64,000 nt of DNA. It comes from an uncultured Gammaproteobacteria bacterium. Lineage in GTDB: Bacteria > Patescibacteriota > Microgenomatia > Levybacterales > UBA12049. How positions within the stretch are numbered: position 1 is the first letter of the stretch; every line of letters begins with the position of its first letter. Shown here in pieces: positions 37,321 through 58,937 of the stretch. The notes beneath the pieces were generated by a model that did no database searches, was not told where the DNA came from, and saw only the letters and a program-made list of their open reading frames with translations. The stretch is from assembly GCA_964608945.1 (NCBI GenBank), contig CAZSQB010000001.1:3211-67210 (forward strand), given 5' to 3'. Position numbers and translations under genes: made by a program.

Positions 37321-40039
37321 CAAATTACTTAAGACATTATTGATTCCATTTATAATTACGGCTGTTTTTTTTGTGATCCAAGCTTTTTCCTTAATCAAGG
37401 ACTTTGGATTCTTCTCTGTCATTGAAGAGAATCGGGTTAGTTTTCAAAGAGATAAACCTTTACAGTCGCCTCTCTTAAAGAGTGAAAAAATAGTCGGAAG
37501 ATTTAAAGGTGCAGAGAACAACTTTGGTGTCATACTCTTGAGATTTGTTAAATTTGGGAAAGGTTCGGATACTCTAATATTTAGACTTAAGGAAAAGGGG
37601 AGTAGAGACTGGTATTATGAAAATAAATACGATGGCGAACTATTTCAAAACAATGAATATTATCCATTTGGTTTTCCATCTATTTCTAGTTCAAAGAATA
37701 AGTCTTATCTTTTTGAAATAAAATCAACTTCAGGAAGTGATAAGAATGGTGTTGCTTTAAGCGATGCTAAACCTCAGTTAGCACTAGTTTATACATATTC
37801 CCAAGATCAAATTAGGAATCCTGCATCTCTACTTTCATTCGTTTATAAAAAAATGATCTACGTCATTGGAAACACTAATTATTTGATGATGTTGGGCGTG
37901 TTTTTTCTTTTCTTACTTATTAGGCTTTCAGCAAAGAGAATTTCAAAACTGTTTTTCAAATTTAAGAAAAATCCCAGAAAATTCGCTGATGAAATTATAG
38001 CCGCTATAAATATAAAGAATTTCACCGGGCGTTCTAAAGAGAGAGGGTTCCAATTTAATAAAGTCAAAATCTATCAGTATCTATTAAATACAAATACGAA
38101 GAGAAGAGTATTAATCGCAATACTACTATTTCTCATCGCATTTTTATTTAGATATTCTTCGTCGCTAGTTAATCAGTCTAGCATATTTTATTACACGTTG
38201 GGTGGAGGAGGAGACTATGATCAATTTATGAGAGCATCTACTTGCGCTTTAAATTTTTGTTCGTGGATTATACACCAAAATCTTCTCATTGAATCACTTA
38301 TTTTAGGTTCTTTTTATCAACTTTTTGGATTTGTAGGAGGTCTTAAGACGTATTCACATCTCATGTTACTTCTCTCCTCAATAGTTGCTACTCTTCCATA
38401 TGTCCTTCTTTCAAGGAAGACTTGGTTCTCAATTGGTGGAATTGTGGGCTCATTATTTCTTACAACCTCAGACTTTTTAACTACCGTTGCGTTAAACTTC
38501 CCCCCCGACAACGGATCTGCCTTTATCTTCTCAATGTTCTATATAGTTTATTTGTTGACTATGCATTATGGAACAATTCGTTGGCTAGCAGCTCTGGGGT
38601 TGACAGGATTTTTTGATGGGATGTTTAAAGCATTCTTTCTAATCAATGACCTTGCGGCATTGGCTCTTTTTGCTCCCGCCTTCTTTTATGAGAAAACAAG
38701 GAAAACGGCCCTACCGCGAGCTAAACAGTTAAGGGTAATTCTTAAGCGAAAAAATATTAAAATACTACTTTTAGCTTTATTACCATTCCTAATTTTCTTG
38801 ATTTTGTACTCGGCTTGGGAATATTTTGTGCAAATAAAATTCTCAGCACCCTATTTTCTAAGAATGTTAGTTGAGACTACGGGATCGAATTTCAGGTCTG
38901 AAACGTTATTCTATGATAGAAATTCTGGAAAAGCAGAACAGGATCTCTTACTGCAATTATTTTACCTTTTAATCTCAGGATTAGTTATGATTAAGCGAAT
39001 GATTAGTATCTCTGATTTACAGGTAATTTTTCTAGCGCCAATTTTCTTCGGACTTCTACTCTTTTCCTTTATAAAATCAAGCTCCAAAATTAAACTCTCT
39101 CCTCTAAAGCTCGGTACGATATTCGTTTTTTCGTTTATAAATATCGTTTTACTAGTAAGTGTTAAAAATAATTACTTAGGTATTCATCAAATCTTTCCCG
39201 GAGAATATATTTACGCCAATTGGACTTTAAAGACTTATATCTCTATCTTCCTCTTTGCATCTATAATTTTTCTTTTTATACTAAATTTTAGGTATCAAGC
39301 TTTTAAACTTGCTCTTCCAATAGTGCCTTACGTTATAATGCTTATTATCCTGACCAAGAATGCTCCCTGGGAAAGGCTTTTGGCGCACGTTATTGTATGG
39401 AGTATAATTTTATTTTCCTTCCTTATTGATTGGATTTTAAGCAATACTAAGAAGAACCTGCCTGCCCTGCCTGCCGGCAGGCAGGGCGGCAGGCATGGTT
39501 ATGCATTAAAAAGATTATGGATTGGTCCTATCCTTCTAGTTCTATTCATCTTTTTTTATACAATTCCTAAAACATCGAGTATGGTAGCGCAACTGCGTTC
39601 AGGTATTAACAACACAAGAGGCGAAGTTGAATACTTAAAATGGGTAAACTCAGAATTACCAAAAAATGCCATAATTCTTGCAGGAGGGAAAAGTGATCTA
39701 GTAACTGTTACCGAAAATATAAATAGACCTATTATTTATAATACTTTGTGGTCCACCTCTTTACTAATTCGTCCAAATAGAATTCCTGGAGTATCACCGC
39801 AAGATTTCACTCTCACAGGGGAATTGAGGAATAAAGAAAATTTTAATAAAAAAAGATATTTTGTTTTAGAGAGCGATGTCTATTTATGGAGGGGAAGGCT
39901 TCAAGGTGTAGGAGATAACGTCTTTACAACAGAGCCAAAATCTAATATTGCTCTTCACGCGCAAGATTTCTCAATAAAAGTTTACAAAACAAGTCAAGAA
40001 CTTAATAAAAACATCTATGAGTTGAGACCAAAAGAATGA
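37313..40039 (+). CDS. Giant polytopic membrane protein A (about 908 aa): N-terminal TM, extracytoplasmic beta-rich domain, multi-TM core. Putative GT-C-type glycan polymerase/transferase.
   Basis: The ATG at 37313 overlaps the rmlD stop by 8 nt; the ORF-track start at 37076 is an in-frame read-through of rmlD. Colinear homology with 42253..45111 throughout (KGAENNFGVILLRF / KASENNFGILLFRF, GGDYDQFMRA / QGDYDQFIRA), with about 167 aa of 100% identity near the C-terminus. Confidence 0.7.
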   Translation: MNNKLLKTLLIPFIITAVFFVIQAFSLIKDFGFFSVIEENRVSFQRDKPLQSPLLKSEKIVGRFKGAENNFGVILLRFVKFGKGSDTLIFRLKEKGSRDWYYENKYDGELFQNNEYYPFGFPSISSSKNKSYLFEIKSTSGSDKNGVALSDAKPQLALVYTYSQDQIRNPASLLSFVYKKMIYVIGNTNYLMMLGVFFLFLLIRLSAKRISKLFFKFKKNPRKFADEIIAAINIKNFTGRSKERGFQFNKVKIYQYLLNTNTKRRVLIAILLFLIAFLFRYSSSLVNQSSIFYYTLGGGGDYDQFMRASTCALNFCSWIIHQNLLIESLILGSFYQLFGFVGGLKTYSHLMLLLSSIVATLPYVLLSRKTWFSIGGIVGSLFLTTSDFLTTVALNFPPDNGSAFIFSMFYIVYLLTMHYGTIRWLAALGLTGFFDGMFKAFFLINDLAALALFAPAFFYEKTRKTALPRAKQLRVILKRKNIKILLLALLPFLIFLILYSAWEYFVQIKFSAPYFLRMLVETTGSNFRSETLFYDRNSGKAEQDLLLQLFYLLISGLVMIKRMISISDLQVIFLAPIFFGLLLFSFIKSSSKIKLSPLKLGTIFVFSFINIVLLVSVKNNYLGIHQIFPGEYIYANWTLKTYISIFLFASIIFLFILNFRYQAFKLALPIVPYVIMLIILTKNAPWERLLAHVIVWSIILFSFLIDWILSNTKKNLPALPAGRQGGRHGYALKRLWIGPILLVLFIFFYTIPKTSSMVAQLRSGINNTRGEVEYLKWVNSELPKNAIILAGGKSDLVTVTENINRPIIYNTLWSTSLLIRPNRIPGVSPQDFTLTGELRNKENFNKKRYFVLESDVYLWRGRLQGVGDNVFTTEPKSNIALHAQDFSIKVYKTSQELNKNIYELRPKE
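39251..39751 (+). repeat. Copy 1 of a perfect 501-bp direct repeat inside giant membrane protein gene A.
   Basis: Base-for-base identical to 44275..44775 on manual alignment (offset 5,024 bp). Flanks diverge immediately on both sides. Confidence 0.9.
39457..39495 (+). repeat. GC-rich near-perfect palindrome (CCTGCCTGCCCTGCCTGCC|GGCAGGCAGGGCGGCAGGCA) in-frame within gene A, encoding LPALPAGRQGGRH.
   Basis: About 77% GC over 39 nt in an approximately 30% GC gene. The arms are reverse complements of each other apart from a single base. Confidence 0.8.
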
Positions 40040-40063
40040 ATCTTCTTGTGATAAAATTGGGAA

Positions 40064-41107
40064 ATGTTAAAATCGAATCCTAAAGTTTCCATAGTTATTC
40101 TTAACTATAACGGTAAGAGGTGGCTTGAAAAGTTGCTTCCTACGATTGAGAAAATAAAATATAAGCCTCTTGAAGTTATTATTGTAAATAACGGATCAAC
40201 AGATGACAGTGGAGAATTTGTAAAAAATAAATATCCCCATTTCCGTTTAATTGAGATAATGCCAAACAGAGGGTTTGCCGGAGCAAATAATTATGGAGTA
40301 AAGCATGCGAAAGGAAAATACGTGCTACTTATTAATAATGATACTCAGGTTCCACCAGATTTTCTTGCTCCAATGGTTGGCCGAATGGAAGTCGATAAAA
40401 CTGTAGGCGTAATACAACCAATGATAAGGAGTTTAAGAAATAGAAATGTTCTTGACGCTGCATGCTCTTTCTATACTTCAACTGGTTTTCAATATCACTA
40501 TGGGTATTACCAACCATATAAGAAGAAGCAATATAATAAGGAACATTACGTTTATTCTGCTAAGGGAGCGTGTTTATTTACCCGTCGAGATCTTTATTTA
40601 AAACTTGGGGGACTGGATGAGGACTTTGTGTGCTACGTAGAGGAGTCCGATTATTGTCATCGCATTTGGTTGTCGGGTAAAAAAGTTTTGTATTTTCCAC
40701 AAAGCTATATTTATCACTGGGGCGGTGGAGATATGTCAGTAATGGAAAAAAGCGAGACCACAATTTTCCGCTCTTTTAGGAATAGATATTACTCATACAT
40801 TAAGAATCTAAGCTTTGTAGAGCTTATCAAATTATTACCAGCCCACTTTGTGTTTTCTGAAGCAATGATTTTCTCAGCACTTGCAAGAGGCATAATTCGT
40901 TATGGACTTTCTGCACAACTTGGAACTTTATGGTGGATTTTCCATCTTCCTCGGATCCTTAAAAAGAGAAGATACATACAAAGGAAAATTAGGAAAGTGT
41001 CTGATGCTGACTTCATACCACTGATAAAACATGATCCACCTTTATCATACTACCCGCACTTTCTAAGAAATCCTGAAGCAAAATATAATGAATCGCCGAT
41101 AGACTAA
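40064..41107 (+). CDS. GT2 glycosyltransferase (tandem paralog a). Rhamnosyl/galactofuranosyl-transferase-like long GT2.
   Basis: VSIVILNYNGKRWLEKLLPTIE...VIIVNNGSTDDS...PNRGFAGANNYG...LLINNDTQV. Confidence 0.75.
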   Translation: MLKSNPKVSIVILNYNGKRWLEKLLPTIEKIKYKPLEVIIVNNGSTDDSGEFVKNKYPHFRLIEIMPNRGFAGANNYGVKHAKGKYVLLINNDTQVPPDFLAPMVGRMEVDKTVGVIQPMIRSLRNRNVLDAACSFYTSTGFQYHYGYYQPYKKKQYNKEHYVYSAKGACLFTRRDLYLKLGGLDEDFVCYVEESDYCHRIWLSGKKVLYFPQSYIYHWGGGDMSVMEKSETTIFRSFRNRYYSYIKNLSFVELIKLLPAHFVFSEAMIFSALARGIIRYGLSAQLGTLWWIFHLPRILKKRRYIQRKIRKVSDADFIPLIKHDPPLSYYPHFLRNPEAKYNESPID

Positions 41108-41178
41108 AATGGCAAAGCCGTTTCGACTATTAAATCTGGCTGGTGGGGAGCATGACCAAAAAACAGAATTATTAGAAA

Positions 41179-42237
41179 ATGAATTTAAAAATTGTTGAAA
41201 GTTCTAAGGTTCCAAAAGTGACCGTACTTATACCCAACTACAATGGAAAAAAGTGGCTTGAAAAGTTGCTTCCTACTGTTGAAAAAACAACTTACCCAAA
41301 CAAAGAAATTCTCGTTGTAAACAACGGATCTACAGATAACAGTGGTCAGTTTCTTAAAAAAAACTATCCCAATGTTCGTGTTGTAGAGGTTAAAAAGAAC
41401 AGAGGTTACGCAGGGGCGAATAATTTTGGCGTAAAGTTTGCCAAAGGTAAATATATTTTATTTCTCAATAATGATACTCAAGTTACTCCAAGCTTTTTAG
41501 AACCTTTGGTTGAAAGGATGGAAAAAGATAATACCGTAGGTGCTGTTCAGCCTCAGATAAGACACATGGTTAAAAAAGACGTCATTGATTCAATAGGCTC
41601 CCTTTTTACGTTTACAGGATTTTTATACCACTATGGGTATTTTCAATCCTACAAAGAAAGGAAATATCAAAAAGAACTATCTGTATATTCTGTCAAAGGA
41701 GCATGTTTTCTTATGAGTAAAGAAGATTATATAGATCTTGGGGGAATTGATGAGAGCTTTGTAACCTATGTTGAGGAATCAGATCTTTGCCATAGAATTT
41801 TGTTAAGTGGTAAGAAAATAGTTTACGTTCCAAAAAGCGTTGTTTACCATTTTGGGGGAGGGGATATGAACATCATGACAAAAAGTGAAGTAGTGATATT
41901 TCGATCCTTTAGAAATAGATTTGTGTCTTATTTAAAAAATTTAGGGGTGAAAAAACTTATCCTTGTTCTGCCGGTCCATTTTGTTCTATGCGAAATGCTT
42001 ATTTTCATGAGCCTTCTGCGGGGAAAGTTCAAACAGGCCATAGCGTCTCAAGTTGGAGTCGTAGGATGGATCCCAAATTTCTTTTCGATTTTAAAACAGA
42101 GAAAATATATACAGTCGCGTATAAGAAAGATAAGTGATGATGAACTCTTCGCATCCGTTGAACATAACCCCAGTTTCGGATATTACTCTCATTTCTTTTT
42201 TGACCCTTATGGCAAATTTAGCGAAAAAGAGCTATAA
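41179..42237 (+). CDS. GT2 glycosyltransferase (tandem paralog b).
   Basis: VTVLIPNYNGKKWLEKLLPTVE...ILVVNNGSTDNS...KNRGYAGANNFG...LFLNNDTQV. Colinear with 40064..41107. Confidence 0.75.
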   Translation: MNLKIVESSKVPKVTVLIPNYNGKKWLEKLLPTVEKTTYPNKEILVVNNGSTDNSGQFLKKNYPNVRVVEVKKNRGYAGANNFGVKFAKGKYILFLNNDTQVTPSFLEPLVERMEKDNTVGAVQPQIRHMVKKDVIDSIGSLFTFTGFLYHYGYFQSYKERKYQKELSVYSVKGACFLMSKEDYIDLGGIDESFVTYVEESDLCHRILLSGKKIVYVPKSVVYHFGGGDMNIMTKSEVVIFRSFRNRFVSYLKNLGVKKLILVLPVHFVLCEMLIFMSLLRGKFKQAIASQVGVVGWIPNFFSILKQRKYIQSRIRKISDDELFASVEHNPSFGYYSHFFFDPYGKFSEKEL

Positions 42238-42252
42238 TTTTTTACGTTTTCG

Positions 42253-45111
42253 ATGAAGCACTTTAAATTATTTATCATTTCATTGTTTTTGGTATTTGGA
42301 TATTTAATATTGATTTCGTATCCTTATTTTTTTTCCAAGATTACGCGTTTTGATTCACTCGGACCTCTTTCATTAGTGGAAGAAAAATCGGTAAATATCC
42401 AAAAAACGTTCAGTCCAGACCGCAGAACCGATCAATTTGACAATCACTTGCTTAAAGGAGAAAAGGTCACTGTTAAACTTAAAGCTTCCGAAAACAATTT
42501 TGGTATTTTATTGTTTAGATTCGCGCAACTATCTGACAATGTAACAGATACGGTTGTTTTTAGAGTAAAAGAAGAAGGAAAAGAATGGCACTATGAAAAT
42601 AATTATAAGGCAAACCAATTTCAGCCAGATCAGTATTTTACTTTTGGTTTTCCTCCTTTTAAAAATTCCAAAAACAACACCTACGTTTTTGAGATAGAAT
42701 CTCTTTCAGGCACATACAAGAATGGAATTGGGGTGAGTTTGAGAGAACCGCAAGTCGCGTTAGTTTATAAATACACACGAGCCGATCTAACGAATTTTAA
42801 TACGCTTTTCCCTTTTATTTTTAAAAAATTTGTTTATGTAGCAAGAAACGTAAATTTCCTTCAAGATAGGCAGTTATTTATAATATTTTTTTCGTCATTT
42901 CTTTTTACTCTTTATTTGAAAAATAAAAGAAAAATAAAATTGCCAAAGCCTAAAAAGAAGTATCGTAAATTTTTAAAAATGGTTGTCGGTGAAATAATCT
43001 TCGATTATGTATTATTTGAAAAGAAGCTATTTAAACCTTTAAAAAAATCAGTCCTCAGATTTACCAGATCCAAATTTTATTTAAAATACTTAGATACAAA
43101 TGCTAAAAAAAGATTAGCAATTGTTTTATTAGTATTTTTAATCGCGATTCTTTACCGATTTTCCGCAGCTTCAGTTGATCAATTAGGTGTGTTCTCATTT
43201 TATGCGGGTTTAGGTGGTCAGGGTGATTATGATCAATTTATAAGAGCTGCAACATGTGCAGTAAGAAACTTTTGCCCTGCCATCTTAGGACAAAACTTTC
43301 TTATTGAATCATCTATCTTAGGGACGTTTTACGAAATATTCGGATTTGCGGGGGGACTTAAAGCATATCTATATTTCATGATTATTCTAAGCTCAATTGT
43401 TGCTACTCTTCCTTACGTTCTTTTGTCTCGAAAACACTTTATCACAATAGGTGGAATAATCGGCAGTCTTTTTCTTGCAACTTCAGATTATTTAACTCAT
43501 ATGGCCCTTAATCTTCCACCAGACAACGCGTCTCTATTTGCCTTCTCAATGTTCTTTATAGTTTATCTAATTACGATTCATATTGGAACCATTCGTTGGC
43601 TTTTATTTTTTGGCTTGATAGGTTTAATAGATGGATTAAATAAATTATTATTATTAATAAATGATTTAGCAGTATTTATGCTATTTGTTCCGGTTTTCTT
43701 CTATGAAAAGGCAAATAAGACTAAGAAGTTTCCTTTTGTTAAATTAAACCCAAAATTGATCTTCTATTCTATACTGCCACTTTTAGTTTTCCTCGTGATT
43801 TATTCGGCATGGGAGTATGTTGTACAAATGAAATTCTCAACTCCCTACTATTTGAGAGCATTGATAGAAGGAGGTTCTACCTATCAATCATCCACTGACG
43901 CAGGATCTATGTCCATCAATGAAAGTCTTTCACAAGGCAATATATTGGAAAAATTATTTTATTATGCAGGATTGTCTGTCGTTATGCTAAAACGAGTAAT
44001 TCAGAATGCTGGTCTTAATGATATCTTTCTTATTCCCATTTTATTCGGTTTATTATTCGCGACTTTCAGAAAGTCCCCATTCGATGGATTCGACAAGCTC
44101 ACCACAAGTAATCTCAGGGCAAGAAAATTTTCTGTCACGAAATTAATATCTATGGTAATTTTTGCAAGCCTTGCTTTTACGACCCTACAATTATTCAAAG
44201 AAAACTTTCTGGGCATACAAGATATTGGACAATATGTCTATGCATGGTCCAATGATATTTATGTTAATGTATTTCTCTTTGCATCTATAATTTTTCTTTT
44301 TATACTAAATTTTAGGTATCAAGCTTTTAAACTTGCTCTTCCAATAGTGCCTTACGTTATAATGCTTATTATCCTGACCAAGAATGCTCCCTGGGAAAGG
44401 CTTTTGGCGCACGTTATTGTATGGAGTATAATTTTATTTTCCTTCCTTATTGATTGGATTTTAAGCAATACTAAGAAGAACCTGCCTGCCCTGCCTGCCG
44501 GCAGGCAGGGCGGCAGGCATGGTTATGCATTAAAAAGATTATGGATTGGTCCTATCCTTCTAGTTCTATTCATCTTTTTTTATACAATTCCTAAAACATC
44601 GAGTATGGTAGCGCAACTGCGTTCAGGTATTAACAACACAAGAGGCGAAGTTGAATACTTAAAATGGGTAAACTCAGAATTACCAAAAAATGCCATAATT
44701 CTTGCAGGAGGGAAAAGTGATCTAGTAACTGTTACCGAAAATATAAATAGACCTATTATTTATAATACTTTGTGGACAGCGGCGTTACTGATTATACCAA
44801 ATGAAATTCCAGGAGCAAAACCCACTGATTTTGCTATATTAAATCAGTTGAAAATCAATGAGATACCAGGAGTAAGCCCAAGTGATTTTAGTATAATACG
44901 GGAGTTGAGAAACAAGGATAATTTCGGGAAAAACAAGTATATGATTTTAGAAGATGACGTTTATATATGGCGAGATAGAGTAGCAGGAGTAGGAGATAAT
45001 CTTTTTTCTACATCTTCTGCTGCGTTGCTTAATGGAGAGGATTACTTAATCAAAGTCTATAAATCCAATCCAATTCTAAAAAAAGCTATCTACGAATTAA
45101 AGCTTAAGTAG
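42253..45111 (+). CDS. Giant polytopic membrane protein B (952 aa). Paralog of 37313..40039.
   Basis: Same domain order as protein A. Carries the second copy of the 501-bp identical segment. Confidence 0.7.
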   Translation: MKHFKLFIISLFLVFGYLILISYPYFFSKITRFDSLGPLSLVEEKSVNIQKTFSPDRRTDQFDNHLLKGEKVTVKLKASENNFGILLFRFAQLSDNVTDTVVFRVKEEGKEWHYENNYKANQFQPDQYFTFGFPPFKNSKNNTYVFEIESLSGTYKNGIGVSLREPQVALVYKYTRADLTNFNTLFPFIFKKFVYVARNVNFLQDRQLFIIFFSSFLFTLYLKNKRKIKLPKPKKKYRKFLKMVVGEIIFDYVLFEKKLFKPLKKSVLRFTRSKFYLKYLDTNAKKRLAIVLLVFLIAILYRFSAASVDQLGVFSFYAGLGGQGDYDQFIRAATCAVRNFCPAILGQNFLIESSILGTFYEIFGFAGGLKAYLYFMIILSSIVATLPYVLLSRKHFITIGGIIGSLFLATSDYLTHMALNLPPDNASLFAFSMFFIVYLITIHIGTIRWLLFFGLIGLIDGLNKLLLLINDLAVFMLFVPVFFYEKANKTKKFPFVKLNPKLIFYSILPLLVFLVIYSAWEYVVQMKFSTPYYLRALIEGGSTYQSSTDAGSMSINESLSQGNILEKLFYYAGLSVVMLKRVIQNAGLNDIFLIPILFGLLFATFRKSPFDGFDKLTTSNLRARKFSVTKLISMVIFASLAFTTLQLFKENFLGIQDIGQYVYAWSNDIYVNVFLFASIIFLFILNFRYQAFKLALPIVPYVIMLIILTKNAPWERLLAHVIVWSIILFSFLIDWILSNTKKNLPALPAGRQGGRHGYALKRLWIGPILLVLFIFFYTIPKTSSMVAQLRSGINNTRGEVEYLKWVNSELPKNAIILAGGKSDLVTVTENINRPIIYNTLWTAALLIIPNEIPGAKPTDFAILNQLKINEIPGVSPSDFSIIRELRNKDNFGKNKYMILEDDVYIWRDRVAGVGDNLFSTSSAALLNGEDYLIKVYKSNPILKKAIYELKLK
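44275..44775 (+). repeat. Copy 2 of the perfect 501-bp direct repeat inside giant membrane protein gene B.
   Basis: Identical to 39251..39751. Confidence 0.9.
44481..44519 (+). repeat. Second copy of the GC-rich palindrome (inside the 501-bp repeat).
   Basis: Same 39-nt sequence as 39457..39495. Confidence 0.8.
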
Positions 45112-45172
45112 ACTGAAAATCTTTGACATATGTTTGACATTCACTCACAATTAACATAAACTTCATTTACAA

Positions 45173-45796
45173 ATGATGGGTAAAAACAATAATCTTTATC
45201 GTAAAAAAGCAGAAACGCATTTAACCGAAAGCATCAAAGTTAAACAGGCAACGCTTGAAAAATGCATGAATTCAATTCTTGCTGCAGCTCAATTAATTGT
45301 GGATACTTTTTTATCCGGGGGTAAGGTTTTACTCTGCGGCAACGGTGGGAGTGCTGCCGATTGCCAGCACATGGCGACAGAACTTGTTAATACACTAGAT
45401 AAGAATTTTATTCGTCCCAGTCTGCCTGCCTTTGCCCTCACTACCGATACGTCAGTAATGACATCTTTTGCCAATGACTTTGGTTTTGATGGAGTCTTTG
45501 AACGCCAAATTCAAGGTTTGGGTAAGCCTAACGATTTATTAATAGGTCTCTCAACCAGTGGAAATTCCAAAAACATCATCAGAGCCATGACAGCGGCCAA
45601 TACTATCAAAATGCACACCCTGGCTTTAACCGGCAATTCCGGTAAACTACAAAAAATAGCAGATGTGGTAATTTCTATCCCTAGTAAAAATACACAATAC
45701 ATCCAAGAAGCACACTTGACTGTTGAACATATCCTTTGCGAATTGGTTGAGCATTATCTTTTTGTGGGTATAAAGAAAAAAGAACTATGGTCATAA
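45173..45796 (+). CDS. gmhA: Phosphoheptose isomerase (sedoheptulose-7-phosphate isomerase, SIS domain).
   Basis: LLCGNGGSAADCQHMATELV...LLIGLSTSGNSKNI...HTLALTGNSGKL, the diagnostic GmhA SIS motifs. Confidence 0.85.
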   Translation: MMGKNNNLYRKKAETHLTESIKVKQATLEKCMNSILAAAQLIVDTFLSGGKVLLCGNGGSAADCQHMATELVNTLDKNFIRPSLPAFALTTDTSVMTSFANDFGFDGVFERQIQGLGKPNDLLIGLSTSGNSKNIIRAMTAANTIKMHTLALTGNSGKLQKIADVVISIPSKNTQYIQEAHLTVEHILCELVEHYLFVGIKKKELWS

Positions 45797-51907: not shown

Positions 51908-51908
51908 A

Positions 51909-53096: not shown

Positions 53097-53097
53097 C

Positions 53098-54051
53098 ATG
53101 AAAAAGAATAAAGTCTTAGTTTGCGGAGCCAGTGGATTCATTGGTCGCAATATTGCAGAAAGGCTAGGTAAACGCCCTGATATGAAGGTTTATGGAACCT
53201 ATTTTGAAACAAAGCCCAGTATAAAAGGTATTTCTTTGATTAGAGTTGATTTAACAAATAAATCAGAAGTTAGCCAAATTGTCAGGGGTATGGATATTGT
53301 AATCCAGGCGGCTGCAGTAACCTCAGGATCAAAAGATATTGTTACAAAACCATACATTCATGTTACAGATAATGCTATTATGAATAGCCTAATTTTTAAG
53401 TCATGCTTTGATAATCGCGTTAAACATGTTGTATTTTTTAGTTGCACAGTAATGTATCCAAGCAAAAATAATCCTGTAAAAGAGGAGGATTTTAATTATG
53501 AAATTACGGATAAATATTTCGGTGTTGGATGGACAAAAGTATATTTGGAAAAGATGTGTGAGTTCTACTCAAGGATTGGTAATACAAAATATACGGCCAT
53601 AAGACACACAAATATTTATGGTCCCTTTGATAAATACGACTTAGATAAATCTCATTTTTTTGGAGCAACAATAACTAAGGTTTTACGAGCCCGCGATAAC
53701 GAGATTGTTATTTGGGGAGACGGATCTGAAGAAAGAGATCTACTTTATGTTTCAGATTTAGTCGATTTTATTGAGATAGTTTTAAAAAAACAAAAAGAAC
53801 CATTCGAGTTAATTAACATAGGACTAGGAAAGAGTTTTTCTGTAAAAGATGTGATAGGCAAAATTATTGAAATTTCCGGTAAAAATAAAAGCATGGAATT
53901 TGACACCTCAAAGCCCACAATTAAATTTAATTTGGCTGTTAATATTGAGAAAGCACGAAAAAAATATAACTTTAGACCAAAGATTTCTCTTGAAAAAGGA
54001 ATAAAAAAAACAATATCTTGGTATAAGAAAAGCTTTTTAGAAAAAAAATAA
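53098..54051 (+). CDS. NAD(P)-dependent epimerase/reductase (GDP-fucose-synthase-like SDR).
   Basis: KVLVCGASGFIGRNIA...YLEKMCEFY. No 4,6-dehydratase signature, hence a reductase/epimerase call. Confidence 0.65.
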   Translation: MKKNKVLVCGASGFIGRNIAERLGKRPDMKVYGTYFETKPSIKGISLIRVDLTNKSEVSQIVRGMDIVIQAAAVTSGSKDIVTKPYIHVTDNAIMNSLIFKSCFDNRVKHVVFFSCTVMYPSKNNPVKEEDFNYEITDKYFGVGWTKVYLEKMCEFYSRIGNTKYTAIRHTNIYGPFDKYDLDKSHFFGATITKVLRARDNEIVIWGDGSEERDLLYVSDLVDFIEIVLKKQKEPFELINIGLGKSFSVKDVIGKIIEISGKNKSMEFDTSKPTIKFNLAVNIEKARKKYNFRPKISLEKGIKKTISWYKKSFLEKK

Positions 54052-55074
54052 ATGAGAAATACCAAACACAACTTCTATAGAGGTAAAAATGTACTTGTTA
54101 CCGGTGGGACTGGTTTAATAGGAAGACCCTTGGTGGAAATGCTTATTGAGGCCCAAGCTAAGGTAAGGGTTGTTTCTTTGGATGCTCCCTCAAGAGCCCA
54201 TCCTGCGGCGGAATTTTTAAGGTTGGATCTTACTGATGTCAATAATTGCCTAAAAGCTGCTCGGGGAATGAATTACGTGTTTCACCTTGCTGGTATAAAA
54301 GGGTCTCCGAAAATGACCAAAGAGCGTCCAGCAAGTTTCTTTGTCCCGACAATTCTTTTCAATACCAATATGATGGAGGCGGCAAGGCGAACAGGCGTCA
54401 AACACTATCTTTATACAAGTACTATTGGGGTATATGCTCCGGCCGAAGTATTTTATGAAGATGATGTATGGAAGAGTTTTCCTTCTGAAAATGACAAATT
54501 TGCTGGATGGGCAAAGCGTATGGGAGAACTTCAGGCGCAGGCATATAGAATAGAATACGGCTGGAATAAGATTTCCATTTTGAGACCTGCGAATGTGTAC
54601 GGACCTTACGACAACTTTGATCCGGAAAACGCCATGGTAATACCTTCAATCATCGCGCGCTCGCTTGGCGGAGAAAATCCGCTCGTGGTATGGGGTGACG
54701 GAACGCCTATTCGCGATTTCATTCATGCCAAAGACGTAGCGCGAGGAATGATGATGGCTATTGAAAAACGAGTTAATGTCCCAGTTAATTTAGGTAGTGG
54801 TACCGGAGTAACAATAAAACAGATTGCAGAAACAATTGCAAAGTTTGTTCCGGGAGAGCCTATTAAAATTGTTTGGGATAAAAGTAAGCCGATGGGTGAC
54901 AAGAAAAGATTGATGGATATAACAAGGGCAAAAAAACTTCTTGGATTTAAGCCAATAATGTCGCTTGATGAGGGAATTAAAGAAACCATAGATTGGTATC
55001 TAAAAAACAAATCTCTATTGAATAAAAGATATAATATTTTCAATGAACCCAAATCTAAAAAGAAAAAAAAGTAA
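54052..55074 (+). CDS. NAD(P)-dependent epimerase/reductase (GDP-L-fucose synthase family-like SDR).
   Basis: NVLVTGGTGLIGRPLVE...YAPAEV...WAKRMGE...RPANVYGPYDNFDPENAMVIPS. Confidence 0.7.
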   Translation: MRNTKHNFYRGKNVLVTGGTGLIGRPLVEMLIEAQAKVRVVSLDAPSRAHPAAEFLRLDLTDVNNCLKAARGMNYVFHLAGIKGSPKMTKERPASFFVPTILFNTNMMEAARRTGVKHYLYTSTIGVYAPAEVFYEDDVWKSFPSENDKFAGWAKRMGELQAQAYRIEYGWNKISILRPANVYGPYDNFDPENAMVIPSIIARSLGGENPLVVWGDGTPIRDFIHAKDVARGMMMAIEKRVNVPVNLGSGTGVTIKQIAETIAKFVPGEPIKIVWDKSKPMGDKKRLMDITRAKKLLGFKPIMSLDEGIKETIDWYLKNKSLLNKRYNIFNEPKSKKKKK

Positions 55075-55813
55075 TTATTTGATTACCGGTTCTGGAAGTG
55101 GTCTAGGTAAGTATTTTCATGATCAATTAGGGGGGACTTCCTTTAATAGAGATTTTGGGAATGTCGACGAAACAGAAGTACTTATTCATTGCGCTTTTAA
55201 TCTAGCAAGAGAAGTTAATTCCAAAGATCTTTACCAATACCTTCTTGATAATTTTTTTTTAACAAAAAAATTAGCTATAATTCCCCATAAAAAATTTATT
55301 TACGTATCATCAGTGGATGTGTACCCAAAAAATAACAAAAAACATTCTGAAAACGAAATAATAGATGTCAATCAAATATCTGGTTTTTACGGGGTAACCA
55401 AGCTTATGTCAGAAAGCCTAATTCAAAATCTTTGTCCGAACTTTTTGATACTAAGATGCTCAGCACTTCTTGGGAAGGATGCACGCACAAATAGTTTGAA
55501 AAAAATAATAAGAGAAGAGAATCCTACTTTAACTTTATCTTCCGAATCTGTATTCAATTTTATTTTACACAAGGACGTTTTAGAATTTGTAAAGATAGCA
55601 ACTGAAAAAGATCTACAAGGAGTATATAATTTAGTATCATCAGAAAATATCACCCTTTTCCAAATAGCAGAATTACTTGGAAAAAAAGTTAGCTTTGGAA
55701 GTTATATGTACAACGTAGGAGAAATAGATAATAAAAAGGCTTCTTTGGTGGCTTCGTCTTTTAAAAAGACCTCGCGGGAGATAGTAATTGAATTCATGGA
55801 TTTAATATCATGA
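55043..55813 (+). CDS. Short NAD-dependent epimerase/dehydratase-like protein (divergent SDR).
   Basis: YLITGSGSGLGKYF Rossmann motif, YGVTKLMSE (YxxxK). 256 aa. The start overlaps the upstream gene by about 30 nt and may lie further downstream. Confidence 0.5.
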   Translation: MNPNLKRKKSNYLITGSGSGLGKYFHDQLGGTSFNRDFGNVDETEVLIHCAFNLAREVNSKDLYQYLLDNFFLTKKLAIIPHKKFIYVSSVDVYPKNNKKHSENEIIDVNQISGFYGVTKLMSESLIQNLCPNFLILRCSALLGKDARTNSLKKIIREENPTLTLSSESVFNFILHKDVLEFVKIATEKDLQGVYNLVSSENITLFQIAELLGKKVSFGSYMYNVGEIDNKKASLVASSFKKTSREIVIEFMDLIS

Positions 55814-56472
55814 AAACGACTCTTTTTATCCCAACTTTAAATGAAATAGACGGCATGAAAGCTATCATGCCGCGCGTAAAAAAACAGTGGGTCGATGAAA
55901 TCTTGGTGCTCGACGGCAACTCTTCGGACGGCACGGTAGAATATGCTAAATCACTGGGCTATCGAGTCGTCATGCAAAAATCAAAAGGCATCACAAATGC
56001 TTATCGTGAAGCCTTAAAAATCGCTAAAGGCGACATCATTGTGGCTTTTAGCCCGGATGGAAATTCACTGCCAGAGGTCATACCCGAACTGGTCCGGAAA
56101 ATGAAGGAAGGTTACGACATGGTAATCGCCTCCCGGTACATAGGGGGAGCAAAAAGCGATGATGATGATCCGGTCACGGCTTTCGGTAATTGGATGTTTA
56201 CAACATTAATCAATATAGCTTTTGGTGGGAACTATACGGATTCGCTTGTAATGCTCCGAGCATTTAAGAAAGATATCGTTCAAGAACTTCACATCGATGT
56301 TCCGCGGGCCGGAATGGAACCGATTCTATCGATTCGATGCGCCAAGCAAAAACTAAAAGTCGCCGAAATTCCGGCCTCTGAGCCCAAACGCATTGGCGGC
56401 ACACGCAAGATGAATCCCCTTTTAAACGGCTTGGATATTCTCCGCTTGATCTTTGCGGAGCTGATGCACTAA
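55810..56472 (+). CDS. GT2 polyprenyl-phosphate sugar synthase (GtrB/ArnC/DPM1-like, short form).
   Basis: TLFIPTLNEIDGMK...ILVLDGNSSDGT...AFSPDGNSLPE. Noticeably GC-richer than the flanking genes. Confidence 0.75.
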   Translation: MKTTLFIPTLNEIDGMKAIMPRVKKQWVDEILVLDGNSSDGTVEYAKSLGYRVVMQKSKGITNAYREALKIAKGDIIVAFSPDGNSLPEVIPELVRKMKEGYDMVIASRYIGGAKSDDDDPVTAFGNWMFTTLINIAFGGNYTDSLVMLRAFKKDIVQELHIDVPRAGMEPILSIRCAKQKLKVAEIPASEPKRIGGTRKMNPLLNGLDILRLIFAELMH

Positions 56473-56543
56473 CCCAGACGCAGAAAAAATTCTAATCTGT
56501 GCCGCCGCCGCTATGTATTGCGCATTTCCAATTTTTAGGTATA

Positions 56544-58937
56544 ATGATCCAATTGGAGATTATAGGTTTAAGGAAATTAAAAAGGGCAAACAAAATTCTT
56601 GCTTTGATCGAGAATCGGCCATGGATTGTTTTTGTCGCGCTTTTAGTAGTCATCCTCTTTTTATTCCGCGGACTTTTTAATTCGTATTTTGAAGCGGATG
56701 AATGGTTTCATTTTACATATTACTTTCCGCTTACAAAAAGACCCGATGGGTTTTTAACAGCAATAATATCGACAATTATTAACTCGGGTCCCTTATCCGC
56801 GGGACAACATGTTGTTCCCGTTGCTTCCGCAATATATTTCCTGAATACAAAATTTTTTGGCATGAATTATGCACCTTATGCGTTTATGTCTTTGTCTCTT
56901 CATGCAGTAAATAGCTTTTTGGTATTCGTATTTATAAAAACTTTGTTACATAGAAAAGATATAATAACTAAAAATGTTTTCGCGCTTCTAGGCGCTGTTT
57001 TTTTTGCTCTTTCTCCACAGCATTCTCATACAATAACAGGCGCAGCCCCGTTTTACGGTCAGAATATTTTGTCTGTGACCTTTTTCCTATTATGTATTAT
57101 TTCATTTAAGCTTGCATATCTTCGTGAAAATAAAAAATTCATATACCTTTCTATACTTTTTCTTTTCTTATCACTTTTCACTAAGGAAACGGCAGTCTTT
57201 CTTTTTGTGCTCCTTCCGTTTATGGCTATAATCGAAAAAAAGGGTCTGCCTGCCAGCAGGCCCCGCACCGCTCTGGTGCAGGGCAGGCAGGTTTTTCCTC
57301 TGAAATTTTTAGGTAAACTGTTCATCCTAAGTTTAATTATATATGCGACATTTAGATTTTTAGTTCCGAATATTTATTATGGTGTTGGCCCGCTTGTTGA
57401 CAAACTAGTTGGAAATTATGTTTCGTCATCACTTCCGTCTTGGCAACAGCAGTCGCGCGAAACACCAAAAGTTCCTGATACTGGAACAATTGTTAGCACC
57501 GATCTTTCGATTCACAAGAATCTTCTGGGAGAAATTTTGTTTCGCAGCGTGACTTTTCCTGTAAAAATGACAGGAACTCTTTTTTTGCCAAGACAAACAG
57601 TATTTTCTATTGTCCAGTTTATTACGCCAATTGTTCAACCTGTGCCGCCTGGTGGAGATAGCGCGGATATGTCTCAAGCCCGACTTACATTTTTGTACGG
57701 TCCGGGAAATGGCTTCATTATTTACATAGTAGGTATTGGTATTATTATTTTTTGTGCAAGAGAGTATTTTAGCTTTGTTCGAGGGAAAAAGATAGAGGAG
57801 GCAAGAACACTCGCAACAGGATTTGCAATGATTGTTTTAAGCTCGCTGCCTTTGGTTGCAATTATATTTTCCTTTCCTCGTTGGGGATATGATTTTTATT
57901 TTGACTCGCGGTTTTATTATAATCCCAATGTCGGCGCGGCTATTATTTTCCCGTTTTTACTCTTGGGTTTTTCGGAGTTTATTTCCAAATCGTTTCAAAA
58001 GAAGACAGTTGTTCCCCTGATAGCTTTTACACTTTTCACTCTTTGGCTGATTAATAATATTGCTGTACTAAATGTAAGTATCAGGTATTTCACCCAGAAT
58101 TTTCAACCGGATCGACGGGAGGTCGTAGAACAGTTGAAAAAATATCTTCCAAGCCTTCCTAAGATTACTGTTTTCTATATTGAAACAGATGGTCTGAGTG
58201 CTTATGGTCCGAGTCTTCCATTTCAGACAGGCGTTGCCCCAGCGCTTAGCGTAGTTTATTATGATAACAACCCCTTACCGAATAGTTTTTTTAATAAACC
58301 ACTTTTTGATGGCAAGAAAGAAGGTTATTTATATTCGCAAGGTCGTGGATTTGGATATTATATATCTAAGAAGACGCTTGCAGAAGCGCTTCTTGCAAGT
58401 AAATTTAAGGTTTCTGATATCCGCGCTTTTTACTATAAAGCACAAGATGTAAAACTTATCGATACAACAGGCGAAGTTAGGGCAGAAATGGATAGCTATC
58501 TTACAGCTGCAAAAGAAAATTCTGATTGGAAAAACTACCTTGATCTTTCAACAGGGTTATCATTTTATTACCCTTCTCAAGCGGATATAGAAGAAGTGCC
58601 GCAAGATAGCGCGCAAAGCACAGCAACGTCGTTTGCAATTATTAGTCCAATATTTACCATAAGAATGACAATTTTCAATGTAACGCCTGCTTTTGCAGTG
58701 AATGAATACTCACAAATTCTGACAAACGGTAAATTAGGTATTGTTAATTCGCGAAAAGTTTCATATGATAAGTTTCATTATAATGACAGCCTAATTGTAA
58801 ATAACAATGGAAAAATTGAGTATTTAATTAAGCTTAATGATAGGTTAATAATAGTTGAAACAGAAAACCAGGACGCTGAGTCAATTTTAGCAGTAGAAAA
58901 GATTGCAGGTTCAGTTGAAATTATTAAGAAAGAATGA
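56544..58937 (+). CDS. Large GT-C-like membrane protein (about 797 aa) with a C-terminal extracytoplasmic domain. Probable partner transferase of the upstream GtrB-like GT2.
   Basis: FRGLFNSYFEADEWFHFTYYFPL (DE-type loop motif) and many TM segments. ATG at 56544 has AGGT 6 nt upstream; the track's 56499 start is less likely. Contains the GC-rich palindrome at 57246..57290. Confidence 0.65.
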   Translation: MIQLEIIGLRKLKRANKILALIENRPWIVFVALLVVILFLFRGLFNSYFEADEWFHFTYYFPLTKRPDGFLTAIISTIINSGPLSAGQHVVPVASAIYFLNTKFFGMNYAPYAFMSLSLHAVNSFLVFVFIKTLLHRKDIITKNVFALLGAVFFALSPQHSHTITGAAPFYGQNILSVTFFLLCIISFKLAYLRENKKFIYLSILFLFLSLFTKETAVFLFVLLPFMAIIEKKGLPASRPRTALVQGRQVFPLKFLGKLFILSLIIYATFRFLVPNIYYGVGPLVDKLVGNYVSSSLPSWQQQSRETPKVPDTGTIVSTDLSIHKNLLGEILFRSVTFPVKMTGTLFLPRQTVFSIVQFITPIVQPVPPGGDSADMSQARLTFLYGPGNGFIIYIVGIGIIIFCAREYFSFVRGKKIEEARTLATGFAMIVLSSLPLVAIIFSFPRWGYDFYFDSRFYYNPNVGAAIIFPFLLLGFSEFISKSFQKKTVVPLIAFTLFTLWLINNIAVLNVSIRYFTQNFQPDRREVVEQLKKYLPSLPKITVFYIETDGLSAYGPSLPFQTGVAPALSVVYYDNNPLPNSFFNKPLFDGKKEGYLYSQGRGFGYYISKKTLAEALLASKFKVSDIRAFYYKAQDVKLIDTTGEVRAEMDSYLTAAKENSDWKNYLDLSTGLSFYYPSQADIEEVPQDSAQSTATSFAIISPIFTIRMTIFNVTPAFAVNEYSQILTNGKLGIVNSRKVSYDKFHYNDSLIVNNNGKIEYLIKLNDRLIIVETENQDAESILAVEKIAGSVEIIKKE
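57246..57290 (+). repeat. Third GC-rich imperfect palindrome (CTGCCTGCC...GCACC...GGTGC...GGCAGGCAG) in-frame, encoding LPASRPRTALVQGRQ.
   Basis: The outer arms CTGCCTGCC / GGCAGGCAG are identical to those of the 39457 and 44481 elements. The sequence context is also the same (KK-x-LPA ... GRQ). Confidence 0.7.

What the first reader, a model, noticed from the sequence alone, without database searches (positions are those of the whole stretch)
39457..57290. GC-rich palindromic mini-elements sitting in-frame inside three membrane-protein genes of an AT-rich genome
Three sites carry short (39-45 nt), roughly 75% GC, near-perfect inverted repeats built on CTGCCTGCC...GGCAGGCAG arms: 39457..39495, 44481..44519 and 57246..57290. 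The first two are identical because they lie within the 501-bp repeat. Each is in-frame and encodes a loop segment, LPALPAGRQGGRH or LPASRPRTALVQGRQ, that begins right after a KK motif following a TM helix. The local composition, symmetry and shared arm sequence are unexpected in genes that otherwise run near 30% GC. The situation is conceptually similar to the in-frame palindromic elements described in Rickettsia (RPEs), but much shorter. Alternatives are a hairpin with a regulatory or pausing role, or a recombination hotspot. One of these elements sits in the middle of the gene-conversion tract.
Basis: seen in the sequence. Interest (0 to 1): 0.6.

Follow-up and report, generated by a model that had tools for sequence, protein, structure and literature searches.

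The report
Twenty-base palindrome inserted inside genes
The three GC-rich hairpins are copies of a 20-base perfect palindrome (CCTGCCTGCCGGCAGGCAGG) inserted into protein loops, and the identical 20-mer is scattered through genomes of many bacterial phyla and seems not to have been described.

Summary
The three sites are the GC-richest spots of the window (about 75% GC in genes of 32-36% GC). They are in frame and lie in hydrophilic loops between hydrophobic segments.

They are insertions. About 70 homologs of genes 1/2 lack the 14-residue segment, and about 73 of 82 orthologs of gene 3 lack theirs.

The unit is a 20-nt perfect palindrome, CCTGCCTGCCGGCAGGCAGG, read as LPAGRQ. Sites 1/2 hold a compound copy. 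Site 3 has a second hairpin nested at its exact centre.

The same 20-mer has sharp ends, unrelated flanks and no target duplication in more than 150 places. Hosts include Patescibacteria, Bacteroidota (including cultured isolates), Omnitrophota, Planctomycetota and others. It is absent from 38 Gb of E. coli, plasmid and phage DNA.

It recurs independently at the same loop in scattered gene-3 orthologs and in an FtsK loop. It also sits in tRNA-gene fragments directly upstream of small GIY-YIG nuclease genes.

Best reading: a miniature, probably selfish, insertion element, conceptually like the Rickettsia palindromic elements but far smaller. How it moves is unknown; a break-linked or GIY-YIG-linked route is only inferred. 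No paper holding the sequence was found.

The parts
39458..39499 (+). 42-nt in-frame insert in gene 1, encoding LPALPAGRQGGRHG. It is a compound palindrome: duplicated or nested arms around an exact 20-mer.
   Evidence: Sequence, translation. Absent from about 70 homologs. 76% GC. Hairpin of -34.5 to -35.9 kcal/mol.
39466..39485 (.). Exact copy of the 20-nt perfect palindrome CCTGCCTGCCGGCAGGCAGG, the core unit.
   Evidence: The unit was defined from 122 copies elsewhere: position -1 is C in 122/122 and +1 is G in 118/122.
44482..44523 (+). Identical 42-nt in-frame insert in gene 2. The exact 20-mer is at 44490-44509.
57243..57290 (+). 48-nt in-frame insert in gene 3, encoding GLPASRPRTALVQGRQ. 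The arms CTGCCTGCC and GGCAGGCAG are split at their exact centre by 27 nt.
   Evidence: Other orthologs carry the unsplit 20-mer at this codon (L122 exact; L121 and L123 decayed).
57261..57283 (.). Second GC-rich hairpin, CCCCGCACC-GCTCT-GGTGCAGGG, lying within the 27 nt that split the first element at its centre.
   Evidence: Fold. The same 23-mer was found once in an unrelated intergenic context, L191 942-964.
39251..39751 (+). 501-nt tract identical to 44275-44775 (gene conversion between paralogs). The element lies at offset 208-249 of 501.
   Evidence: Flanking gene sequence is only 55-65% identical.
44275..44775 (+). Partner copy of the 501-nt identical tract.
37076..40039 (+). Host gene 1, a large multi-pass membrane protein with no Pfam family, in a glycan-synthesis cluster. 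The annotated start is probably further downstream.
   Evidence: (P0120).
42253..45111 (+). Host gene 2, a paralog of gene 1 (952 aa).
   Evidence: (P0084).
56499..58937 (+). Host gene 3, a multi-pass membrane protein. One homolog is named glycosyltransferase family 39 by NCBI. No Pfam family.
   Evidence: (P0001, P0025).

Best explanation
The three sites are copies of a miniature insertion element. Its unit is the 20-nt, 80% GC perfect palindrome CCTGCCTGCCGGCAGGCAGG.

Shown:
- It is inserted DNA, absent at the same codon in most orthologs.
- It has sharp 20-nt ends, no target-site duplication and essentially random flanks.
- The identical sequence lies in more than 150 unrelated places in at least ten bacterial phyla.
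- In tRNA-derived sequence the insert is exactly 20 nt.
- The three protein-gene inserts measured against an empty site are multiples of three (21, 42 and 48 nt). Coding copies are read as LPAGRQ in variable loops, so they are the survivors of selection on the reading frame.
- It has entered the same loop of gene 3 several times independently.
- Older copies decay like neutral sequence.

Inferred:
- It is selfish or neutral DNA with no service to the host protein.
- It enters at DNA breaks, or is moved in trans by a nuclease that recognises the hairpin. The best candidate is the small GIY-YIG nucleases next to which it is repeatedly found.
- The palindrome itself is fragile. This would explain why further hairpins nest at its exact centre, and why a 501-nt gene-conversion tract between the two paralogs is roughly centred on it.
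For: Insertion status:
- About 70 homologs of genes 1/2 lack the 14 residues.
- About 73 of 82 gene-3 orthologs lack any insert.
- At DNA level the empty site is AAA AGA|ATT TTT. The filled site is AAA AGG AG[CCTGCCTGCCGGCAGGCAGG]TC.

Family and boundaries:
- Position -1 is C in 122/122 and +1 is G in 118/122. Other flank positions are near random, and there is no TSD.

Negative controls: zero exact copies in 7.3 Gb of plasmids, 2.3 Gb of phages and 28 Gb of E. coli.

Independent gains:
- Carriers are scattered on the ortholog tree, each with insert-free sisters.
- One carrier is offset by 3 nt (L161).
- There is a second site in P0018, where 99% of orthologs are gapped.
- An FtsK loop carries LPAGRQ in three lineages.

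Decay series: L122 matches 20/20, L123 18/20, L121 17/20. P0081 reads TMPDGKQ and P0022 reads SKLAENQ.

Exact 20-nt insert in tRNA sequence.

Frame: in low-GC coding contexts the reading is LPAGRQ.

Nesting at the centre: the window sites, and L174/L181.

GIY-YIG link:
- 7 of 9 small GIY-YIG ORFs in 1.17 Mb of element-bearing loci lie within 200 nt of a copy (permutation p <= 2e-4).
- Five have the copy 20-41 nt upstream.

Gene-conversion tract.
Against: - No mobilising enzyme or mechanism is demonstrated.
- No presence/absence polymorphism between near-identical strains was found. The empty-site search in JGI metagenomes was negative.
- A 20-nt insert shifts the frame. Every coding copy therefore needs an extra 1-nt change or an imprecise insertion, which is an awkward two-step history.
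- Exact copies appear to be few per genome: one stretch each was returned from several 1-6 Mb contigs. That is unlike classical MITE or REP families.
- The same-site recurrence in gene 3 could partly reflect an old insertion with many precise losses.
- Identity across phyla could also reflect constraint on a binding site rather than recent spread.
- Targeting of hairpin loops was not supported overall (31% against 30% in controls).
- The window itself contains no GIY-YIG gene.
Confidence: 0.7

Rival explanations
1. The 20-mer is primarily a recognition or landing site for a selfish nuclease or recombinase. Candidates are the small GIY-YIG cassettes, or a tyrosine recombinase using a 7-6-7 core. 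Its spread would then be a by-product of that system, a two-component arrangement like REP and RAYT, rather than the 20-mer being an autonomous mobile unit.
For: - In L038, L109, L157, L078 and L061 the host sequences are unrelated: three different tRNAs and an hsdS-like gene. They share only the 20-mer, which lies 20-41 nt upstream of the GIY-YIG domain.
- The adjacent GIY-YIGs share a C-terminal REKYLKSGxGRE motif.
- In L040 the same architecture carries a different GC-rich palindrome at the same D-loop position.
- In L087 a gene is bracketed by direct repeats that each contain a 20-mer variant.
Against: - Only about 4% of copies are next to a GIY-YIG gene.
- Clustering of neighbouring ORFs found no recurrent family.
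- The distance from the 20-mer to the cassette junction varies from 8 to 26 nt.
- The sequence between them is host-derived.
- No cleavage data exist.
- This reading does not by itself explain how solitary copies reach new sites.
Confidence: 0.15
2. The hairpins are cis-acting elements kept for a function in the host genes. Candidate functions are a translation pause after a transmembrane helix, an internal attenuator or terminator, or an mRNA-stability element.
For: - All three window copies follow a transmembrane segment plus KK.
- The same loop of gene 3 is hit repeatedly.
- At site 3 the hairpin lies between an A-run and a T-run, and the scan reports a terminator-like hairpin-plus-T-run site at its left arm on the minus strand.
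- The hairpins are very stable.
Against: - Copies in orthologs lose the palindrome while the gene persists (L121, L123, P0081, P0022).
- Most orthologs do without any insert.
- The same 20-mer lies in FtsK, in tRNA fragments and in intergenic DNA, with no common context.
- Sites 1/2 have no T-run.
Confidence: 0.08
3. The loops are ancestral sequence with chance symmetry, or they are an assembly or sequencing artefact.
For: - Perfect palindromes with sharp ends and random flanks are what adapter-type artefacts look like.
- Most carriers are metagenome-assembled genomes.
Against: - The insert is continuous with intact reading frames on both sides.
- Decayed copies exist at orthologous sites in independent samples.
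- The element is present in cultured isolates and in long-read complete assemblies.
- It is absent from 38 Gb of E. coli, plasmid and phage assemblies.
- Shuffles of the window give none.
Confidence: 0.02

Closest known systems
Rickettsia palindromic elements (RPE)
   Same: Palindromic, hairpin-forming DNA inserted in frame into many unrelated protein genes as well as RNA genes and spacers. The inserts are translated as extra surface loops and are apparently selfish.
   Different: RPEs are about 100-150 bp, encode 30-50 residues, and are confined to Rickettsia (from my own knowledge). This unit is 20 nt (7 residues), 80% GC, and identical across many phyla. No sequence relationship was tested or is expected.
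GC clusters of yeast mitochondrial DNA, and the hairpin or double-hairpin elements of fungal, sponge and placozoan mitochondria
   Same: Short GC-rich palindromes dispersed in an AT-rich genome. Some are tolerated in frame inside a protein gene (var1). They are linked to recombination and gene conversion (from my own knowledge, and from titles found).
   Different: Those elements are organellar, usually 30-60 nt, and belong to lineage-specific families. Here the carriers are free-living bacteria of many phyla with one invariant 20-mer.
REP/REPIN sequences with their RAYT (Y1 HUH) transposases, and IS200/IS605-derived PATEs
   Same: Short hairpin elements without target duplications that are moved in trans by a single-copy nuclease gene found next to some copies. 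The 20-mer and GIY-YIG association resembles the REP and RAYT association.
   Different: - REPs are extragenic imperfect palindromes with a conserved GTAG head. They are high-copy and species-specific.
- IS200/IS605 elements insert next to a fixed tetra- or pentanucleotide.
- Here there is no conserved flank, copy number per genome is low, copies lie inside genes, and the associated gene is a GIY-YIG nuclease rather than a Y1 transposase.
MITEs
   Same: Non-autonomous elements made of inverted ends.
   Different: - No target-site duplication.
- At 20 nt the unit is below the 50-500 nt MITE range.
- No parent IS with the same ends was found among neighbours.
GIY-YIG homing endonuclease genes (I-TevI and the T4 Seg proteins, including SegB in the T4 tRNA cluster)
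   Same: Small GIY-YIG genes lodged in or beside tRNA and rRNA genes. Cleavage occurs at a distance from the insertion point, and flanks are co-converted (PMC2330249 abstract and PMC2988022, found).
   Different: - The ORFs here are single-domain proteins of about 85-90 residues with no DNA-binding extension.
- Their link to a fixed palindrome in the host sequence upstream has, as far as I could find, not been described.
PARCELs (palindromic amphipathic repeat coding elements)
   Same: Palindromic coding DNA that is horizontally distributed among distant microbes (PMC2996958).
   Different: PARCELs are tandem repeat-coding units inside surface proteins, not a solitary 20-nt insert that also lies in non-coding DNA.

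Membership tests
Rickettsia palindromic elements | In-frame insertion into protein genes relative to orthologs | tested here: met
Rickettsia palindromic elements | Length of about 100-150 bp, encoding tens of residues | tested here: not met
   The unit is 20 nt. Inserts are 21, 42 and 48 nt.
Rickettsia palindromic elements | Sequence similarity to the RPE consensus families, and a Rickettsia host | not tested
   No RPE sequences were available in the tools. The host is a Patescibacteria (Microgenomates-type) organism.
MITE | Target-site duplication flanking the element | tested here: not met
   Direct-repeat counts at offsets 0-1 from the 18-mer (the 18-mer and 20-mer boundaries) are at expectation for 122 copies; the small excesses at offsets 2-3 were not followed up. 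Removing exactly 20 nt restores the tRNA sequence.
MITE | Terminal inverted repeats shared with an autonomous IS | tested here: inconclusive
   The whole element is two 10-nt inverted arms. No recurrent neighbouring ORF family was found. The split-arm search found no long element with conserved cargo.
REP/REPIN-RAYT | Extragenic, imperfect palindrome with a conserved GTAG head | tested here: not met
   The palindrome is perfect, the flanks are random, and copies lie inside genes.
REP/REPIN-RAYT | High copy number within one species and a species-specific sequence | tested here: not met
   Single stretches were returned from several 1-6 Mb contigs. The sequence is identical in at least ten phyla.
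REP/REPIN-RAYT | Flanks a Y1 (RAYT) transposase gene | not tested
   No RAYT profile was run. The associated gene found is a GIY-YIG nuclease.
IS200/IS605-type (PATE) | Insertion 3' of a fixed tetra- or pentanucleotide, with different left-end and right-end hairpins | tested here: not met
   No conserved flank beyond the element, only a weak excess of A at flank positions 1 and 3. There is a single symmetric hairpin.
Intrinsic terminator | GC-rich hairpin followed by a U-run at the end of a transcription unit | tested here: not met
   All three sites lie inside ORFs. Sites 1/2 have no T-run. Site 3 is followed by T5, and the scan flags its left arm on the minus strand.
Target or cleavage-site module of GIY-YIG homing-type cassettes | Non-random physical linkage to GIY-YIG genes | tested here: met
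   7 of 9 GIY-YIG ORFs lie within 200 nt of a copy, permutation p <= 2e-4.
Target or cleavage-site module of GIY-YIG homing-type cassettes | Cleavage or binding of the 20-mer by the nuclease | not testable with these tools
   This needs biochemistry.
Yeast mitochondrial GC clusters | GC-rich palindrome in an AT-rich genome that can lie in frame in a gene | tested here: met
Yeast mitochondrial GC clusters | Organellar location and membership of the known cluster sequence classes | tested here: not met
   The genomes are bacterial. The sequence classes were not compared.

The most novel reading that the evidence does not exclude
A previously unrecognised class of minimal mobile DNA. These would be perfect palindromes of about 20 nt with no cargo and no target duplication, led by CCTGCCTGCCGGCAGGCAGG, with other families such as TCCGCCAGCTGGCGGA.

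- They would spread across bacterial phyla as the partner of small selfish GIY-YIG nucleases, either as their recognition or cleavage site or as the filler sealed into the breaks they make.
- They would colonise tRNA genes, intergenic hairpins and, after frame correction, loops of proteins as essential as FtsK.
- They would seed gene conversion between paralogs.
Probability: 0.25. Interest if true: 0.85.

Novelty: new variant of a known kind. Interest (0 to 1): 0.72.

Why it matters
If correct, this is the smallest insertion element yet seen to colonise coding sequence. One invariant 20-mer is shared by Patescibacteria, Bacteroidota, PVC-group bacteria and others.

- It gives a concrete and easily searchable marker for a cross-phylum DNA-insertion process that leaves no target duplication.
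- It provides a natural experiment on how proteins tolerate random loop insertions, with LPAGRQ turning up even in FtsK.
- It offers a testable partner, the single-domain GIY-YIG nucleases, whose biology in these phyla is unknown.
- Annotators should know that LPAGRQ, PACRQAG and CLPAGR peptides in hypothetical proteins are footprints of this element.

Tried and rejected
1. Target-site duplication. None was found at the 18-mer or 20-mer boundaries.

2. A general preference for hairpin loops.
- In reconstructed empty sites the junction lies in a predicted loop in 31% of cases, against 30% for random positions.
- Only strong hairpins show a modest excess, 14% against 8%.
- I dropped this as a general rule. 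Several striking cases remain: tRNA loops, the A-run|T-run hot spots of gene 3, and the centre of the element itself.

3. Flank composition. There is only a weak A-left/T-right polarity (p = 0.016).

4. Recurrent neighbouring genes. All-against-all clustering of 152 flanking ORFs gave nothing relevant. The four-helix-bundle (23S IVP) seed found no neighbours.

5. Rfam on the window: no family. No tRNA in the window.

6. Literature. The 18-mer, a 12-mer core and LPAGRQ occur in no relevant paper. Keyword searches found only RPE, MITE, mitochondrial GC-cluster and T4 Seg papers.

7. Annotated collections. No exact copy, and so no annotation to borrow.

8. Strain-level empty allele of window site 1 in JGI metagenomes: none.

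9. The 30-nt compound variant of sites 1/2 in IMG/VR: none. That compound form is so far private to this genome.

10. An exact-protein look-up of gene 3 from its GTG start failed because the databases use a later start.
Full report
**What is in the window**

- Sites 1 and 2 read AAC|CTGCCTGCC CTGCCTGCC GGCAGGCAG GGC GGCAGGCAT GGT|TAT.
- Site 3 reads GGT CTGCCTGCC, then 27 nt, then GGCAGGCAG|GTT.
- They are in frame in three large multi-pass membrane-protein genes: 37076-40039, 42253-45111 and 56499-58937.
- These genes have no Pfam family. They sit among GT2 glycosyltransferase, SIS, epimerase and methyltransferase genes.
- The inserts are 75-76% GC in genes of 32-36% GC, and they fall in hydrophilic loops between two hydrophobic segments.
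- They are the three strongest GC islands of the window.
- The arm 9-mer occurs 11 times against 0.11 expected. The arm-gap-arm pattern occurs 5 times against none in 100 shuffles.
- Predicted hairpins are -34 to -36 kcal/mol, z = -3.1 to -4.6.
- Sites 1 and 2 are identical because 39251-39751 equals 44275-44775. This is a 501-nt perfect tract in genes that are otherwise 55-65% identical. The element lies at offset 208-249 of that tract.

**They are insertions**

The organism is a Patescibacteria of the Microgenomates/Roizmanbacteria type.

- Genes 1/2. The homologs that align over this region read ...NTKKN-YALKRLW... with nothing in between. Only the window's own two paralogs (P0084, P0120) carry LPALPAGRQGGRHG.
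- Gene 3. Most of 82 orthologs read ...IEKR-I/V-FPLKFLGK. A scattered minority carries a short insert at that codon: DLPAGRQ, SLPAGRQ, DLPSGSQ, TMPDGKQ, SKLAENQ, LPAGRPF and AGPPAGEVGRL.
- DNA level. The empty site is AAA AGA|ATT TTT (L124). L122 has AAA AGG AG[CCTGCCTGCCGGCAGGCAGG]TC TTT. L121 and L123 have the same 20-mer with 3 and 2 substitutions. The window has the same arms with 27 extra bases at the exact centre GCC|GGC.
- The core CTG CCT GCC GGC AGG CAG is a perfect palindrome that reads LPAGRQ on either strand.

**The unit and its distribution**

- Over 122 copies the base before is C in 122 and the base after is G in 118. Every position further out is close to random, and no direct repeat flanks the element at the 18-mer or 20-mer boundaries.
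- The unit is therefore the 20-nt perfect palindrome CCTGCCTGCCGGCAGGCAGG.
- From the record titles, my count of carriers is:

| Group | Carriers |
|---|---|
| Patescibacteria, many classes | 37 |
| Bacteroidota, including Ignavibacteria | 39 |
| Omnitrophota | 9 |
| Planctomycetota/PVC | 8 |
| Low-GC MAGs labelled Gammaproteobacteria | about 10 |

- Bdellovibrionales, Thermodesulfovibrionales, Desulfobacterota, Elusimicrobia and Chloroflexi are also represented.
- Bacteroidota carriers include cultured Winogradskyella, Flagellimonas, Longitalea, Flavivirga, Aquiflexum, Agriterribacter and Aestuariivivens.
- No Firmicutes, Actinobacteria, Cyanobacteria or Archaea appear in this truncated sample.
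- Most loci are 31-50% GC. Chance matches should instead come from GC-rich genomes. By my own arithmetic, about 9 chance 18-mers are expected in 596 Gb at 50% GC, and about 0.5 full 20-mers.
- Thirty-five IMG/VR stretches also hold it.
- As controls, 72,556 plasmids, 50,697 phage genomes and 5,426 E. coli genomes hold no exact copy. With the decayed orthologous copies and the isolates, this excludes a technical artefact.
- No paper in the searchable library contains the 18-mer or LPAGRQ. The only hits for the 12-mer core CCTGCCGGCAGG are two zebrafish papers.

**Behaviour in genes**

- On a distance tree of gene-3 orthologs the carriers are scattered, and each has insert-free sisters.
- One carrier (L161) has the insert one codon further on: AGA ATT|CTG CCT GCC GGC AGA CCG TTT|TTC. 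That is a separate event.
- P0018 carries a further copy at a second loop (KN-VLPAGRQ-IF) where 99% of orthologs have a gap. Its DNA reads AAT GT[C CTG CCT GCC GGC AGG CAG] ATT.
- Both gene-3 sites are junctions of an A-run and a T-run (AAAAGA|RTTTTT and AAAAAT|RTTTTT).
- In Patescibacteria FtsK, LPAGRQ sits in the variable loop SYNxN...EPLPY in three lineages. These are L014/P0157, P0184/L164 (exact 20-mer) and P0204. P0166 and P0167 read LPRQQAG and LPRRQAD and look like decayed copies.
- In low-GC loci where a long open frame is informative, the reading is LPAGRQ in L014, L044, L072 and L106. L015, L048 and L075 have shorter flanks and read the same. The only two other readings are in doubtful ORFs.
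- Together with the gene-3 family and the window, roughly a dozen independent coding copies use this one frame of three.

**Exact size of the insert**

- In tRNA-derived sequence, removing exactly 20 nt restores the canonical sequence:

| Locus | Restored sequence |
|---|---|
| L038 | GGTAGA\|GCAGC |
| L157 | GGTA\|GAGC |
| L086 | GGATA\|GAGC |
| L016 | GGTTAGA\|GCGC |
| L109 | TCAGC\|CTTCCAA |
| L150 | GAGG\|TCGCC |

- ARAGORN calls the L150 tRNA-Met with or without the insert. It calls an extra L030 tRNA-Val only after removal.
- In L061 an exact 20-nt copy shifts the frame of an hsdS-like gene.
- The three protein-gene inserts that could be measured against an empty site are 21 nt, 42 nt and 48 nt.
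- I read this as selection. A 20-nt insert is a +2 frameshift, and only copies with a compensating 1-nt change or an imprecise end persist. That would be easiest in multi-paralog families such as these membrane proteins. This step is inference.

**Nesting and recombination**

- Sites 1/2 look like a 20-mer inside, or duplicated within, another copy.
- Site 3 holds a different hairpin (CCCCGCACC-GCTCT-GGTGCAGGG) within the 27 nt inserted at the exact centre. The same 23-mer occurs once elsewhere, in an unrelated intergenic context (L191).
- In L174/L181 another perfect palindrome sits exactly at the centre of the 20-mer.
- The 501-nt conversion tract is roughly centred on the element.
- These points fit a fragile palindrome tip that attracts breaks and repair. 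This is not proven. By chance alone, a 42-nt element would fall inside a 501-nt tract of a 2.9-kb gene about one time in six.

**Link to GIY-YIG nucleases**

- A recurring architecture appears in unrelated genomes. It consists of a 5' fragment of a tRNA gene carrying the 20-mer in its D-loop or anticodon loop, then a GIY-YIG ORF of about 85-90 residues, then an intact copy of the same tRNA.
- It is seen in L038, L109, L157 and L078, and probably in L101 and L086. L040 has the same layout with a different GC-rich palindrome at the same D-loop position.
- In L061 the pair lies inside an hsdS-like gene.
- In 1.17 Mb of element-bearing loci there are 9 small GIY-YIG ORFs. Seven lie within 200 nt of a copy (permutation p <= 2e-4), and five have the copy 20-41 nt upstream.
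- The adjacent proteins share REKYLKSGxGRE.
- This resembles the REP and RAYT association, and the distance-cleaving habit of GIY-YIG homing enzymes. It makes these nucleases the best candidate for the agent that makes the breaks or recognises the hairpin.
- Only about 4% of copies are so placed, and nothing biochemical is known. I put this at about 0.25-0.3.

**What it is not**

- It is not an RPE (size, host). It is not a MITE (no duplication, too small, no parent IS).
- It is not a REP (perfect palindrome, intragenic, low copy number, cross-phylum).
- It is not an IS200/IS605 derivative (no fixed target).
- It is not an ordinary terminator.
- A selected pausing or regulatory role is unlikely. 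Orthologous copies lose the palindrome while the gene persists, and most orthologs have no insert.
- A general preference for hairpin loops was tested and not supported.

**Verdict**

The window shows three copies of an apparently undescribed 20-nt palindromic insertion element of very wide distribution. Its mechanism of spread is open. I rate it as a new variant of a known kind (palindromic mini-elements that colonise genes), with a real chance that it is something more distinct.

Noticed in passing
L038 2105-2480; L109 3678-4061; L157 495-870; L078 2686-3060 (minus strand); L075 2266-2600 (minus strand); L040 870-1100: Small GIY-YIG ORFs sit between a partial 5' duplicate (30-60 nt) of a tRNA gene and the intact tRNA. 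Different tRNAs and different phyla are involved. The upstream duplicate usually carries a GC-rich hairpin, though L075 has none.
   Followed up: partly
L061 3861-4160: An exact 20-mer that shifts the frame, followed by a GIY-YIG cassette, lies inside the central conserved region of an hsdS-like (type I restriction specificity) gene of a Thermodesulfobacteriota MAG.
   Followed up: partly
L095 4758-5042 (minus strand): A GIY-YIG ORF is embedded in what reads as a 23S rRNA gene of a Saccharibacteria MAG, an intervening sequence or intron with a nuclease gene.
   Followed up: no
L012 3331, L016 2857, L017 160, L032 966, L041 2960, L111 1246: A second perfect GC-rich palindrome, (C)TCCGCCAGCTGGCGGA(G), recurs in low-GC loci of different phyla. 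It is sometimes within 10-60 nt of the 20-mer, which suggests a class of such elements. In GC-rich contigs it may simply encode LRQLAE.
   Followed up: partly
L115 1890-2174: There is an array of the 22-nt perfect palindrome GGGACAGGTCGCGACCTGTCCC, repeated about every 88 nt, next to a copy of the 20-mer in a Bacteroidetes MAG.
   Followed up: no
L087 4005-5156: An alpha/beta-hydrolase-like gene in an Ignavibacteria MAG is bracketed by direct repeats (TTATTGGYAGTTGTT-[20-mer variant]-TTTTAAGTG). A third, exact 20-mer lies after its stop codon. The layout resembles a gene cassette.
   Followed up: no
window 19719-19727, 45422-45430, 21639-21647: Three further copies of the 9-mer arm lie in other genes. 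Two encode LPA tripeptides that are probably native (WLPALLE, and SLPAFAL in the SIS protein) using GC-rich codons. This is more than the 0.11 expected by chance, and it is unexplained.
   Followed up: partly
many loci, e.g. L051 3360-3440, L103 1816-1870, L147 6610-6680, L126 10596-11330: Intergenic copies are often embedded in odd short-word direct repeats (AGTGATCG x5, GAATTAC x3, GTGAGAGG, TTCGTAT x3). Others lie inside loops of other conserved hairpins of the GTCATCCCCGA...TCGGGGATC type.
   Followed up: no
IMGVR_UViG_3300037242_000417 (L146, L153, L154): One 29.5-kb IMG/VR contig holds six exact copies. Two (L146 9001 and 10422) are embedded in flanking sequences of about 25-30 nt per side that are reverse complements of each other, so they form a long inverted repeat bracketing 1.4 kb.
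   Followed up: no
window 40064-41107 and 41179-42237: Two tandem GT2 glycosyltransferase paralogs, about 70-79% identical over parts, lie between the two element-bearing membrane-protein paralogs. The whole block looks like a duplicated module.
   Followed up: no
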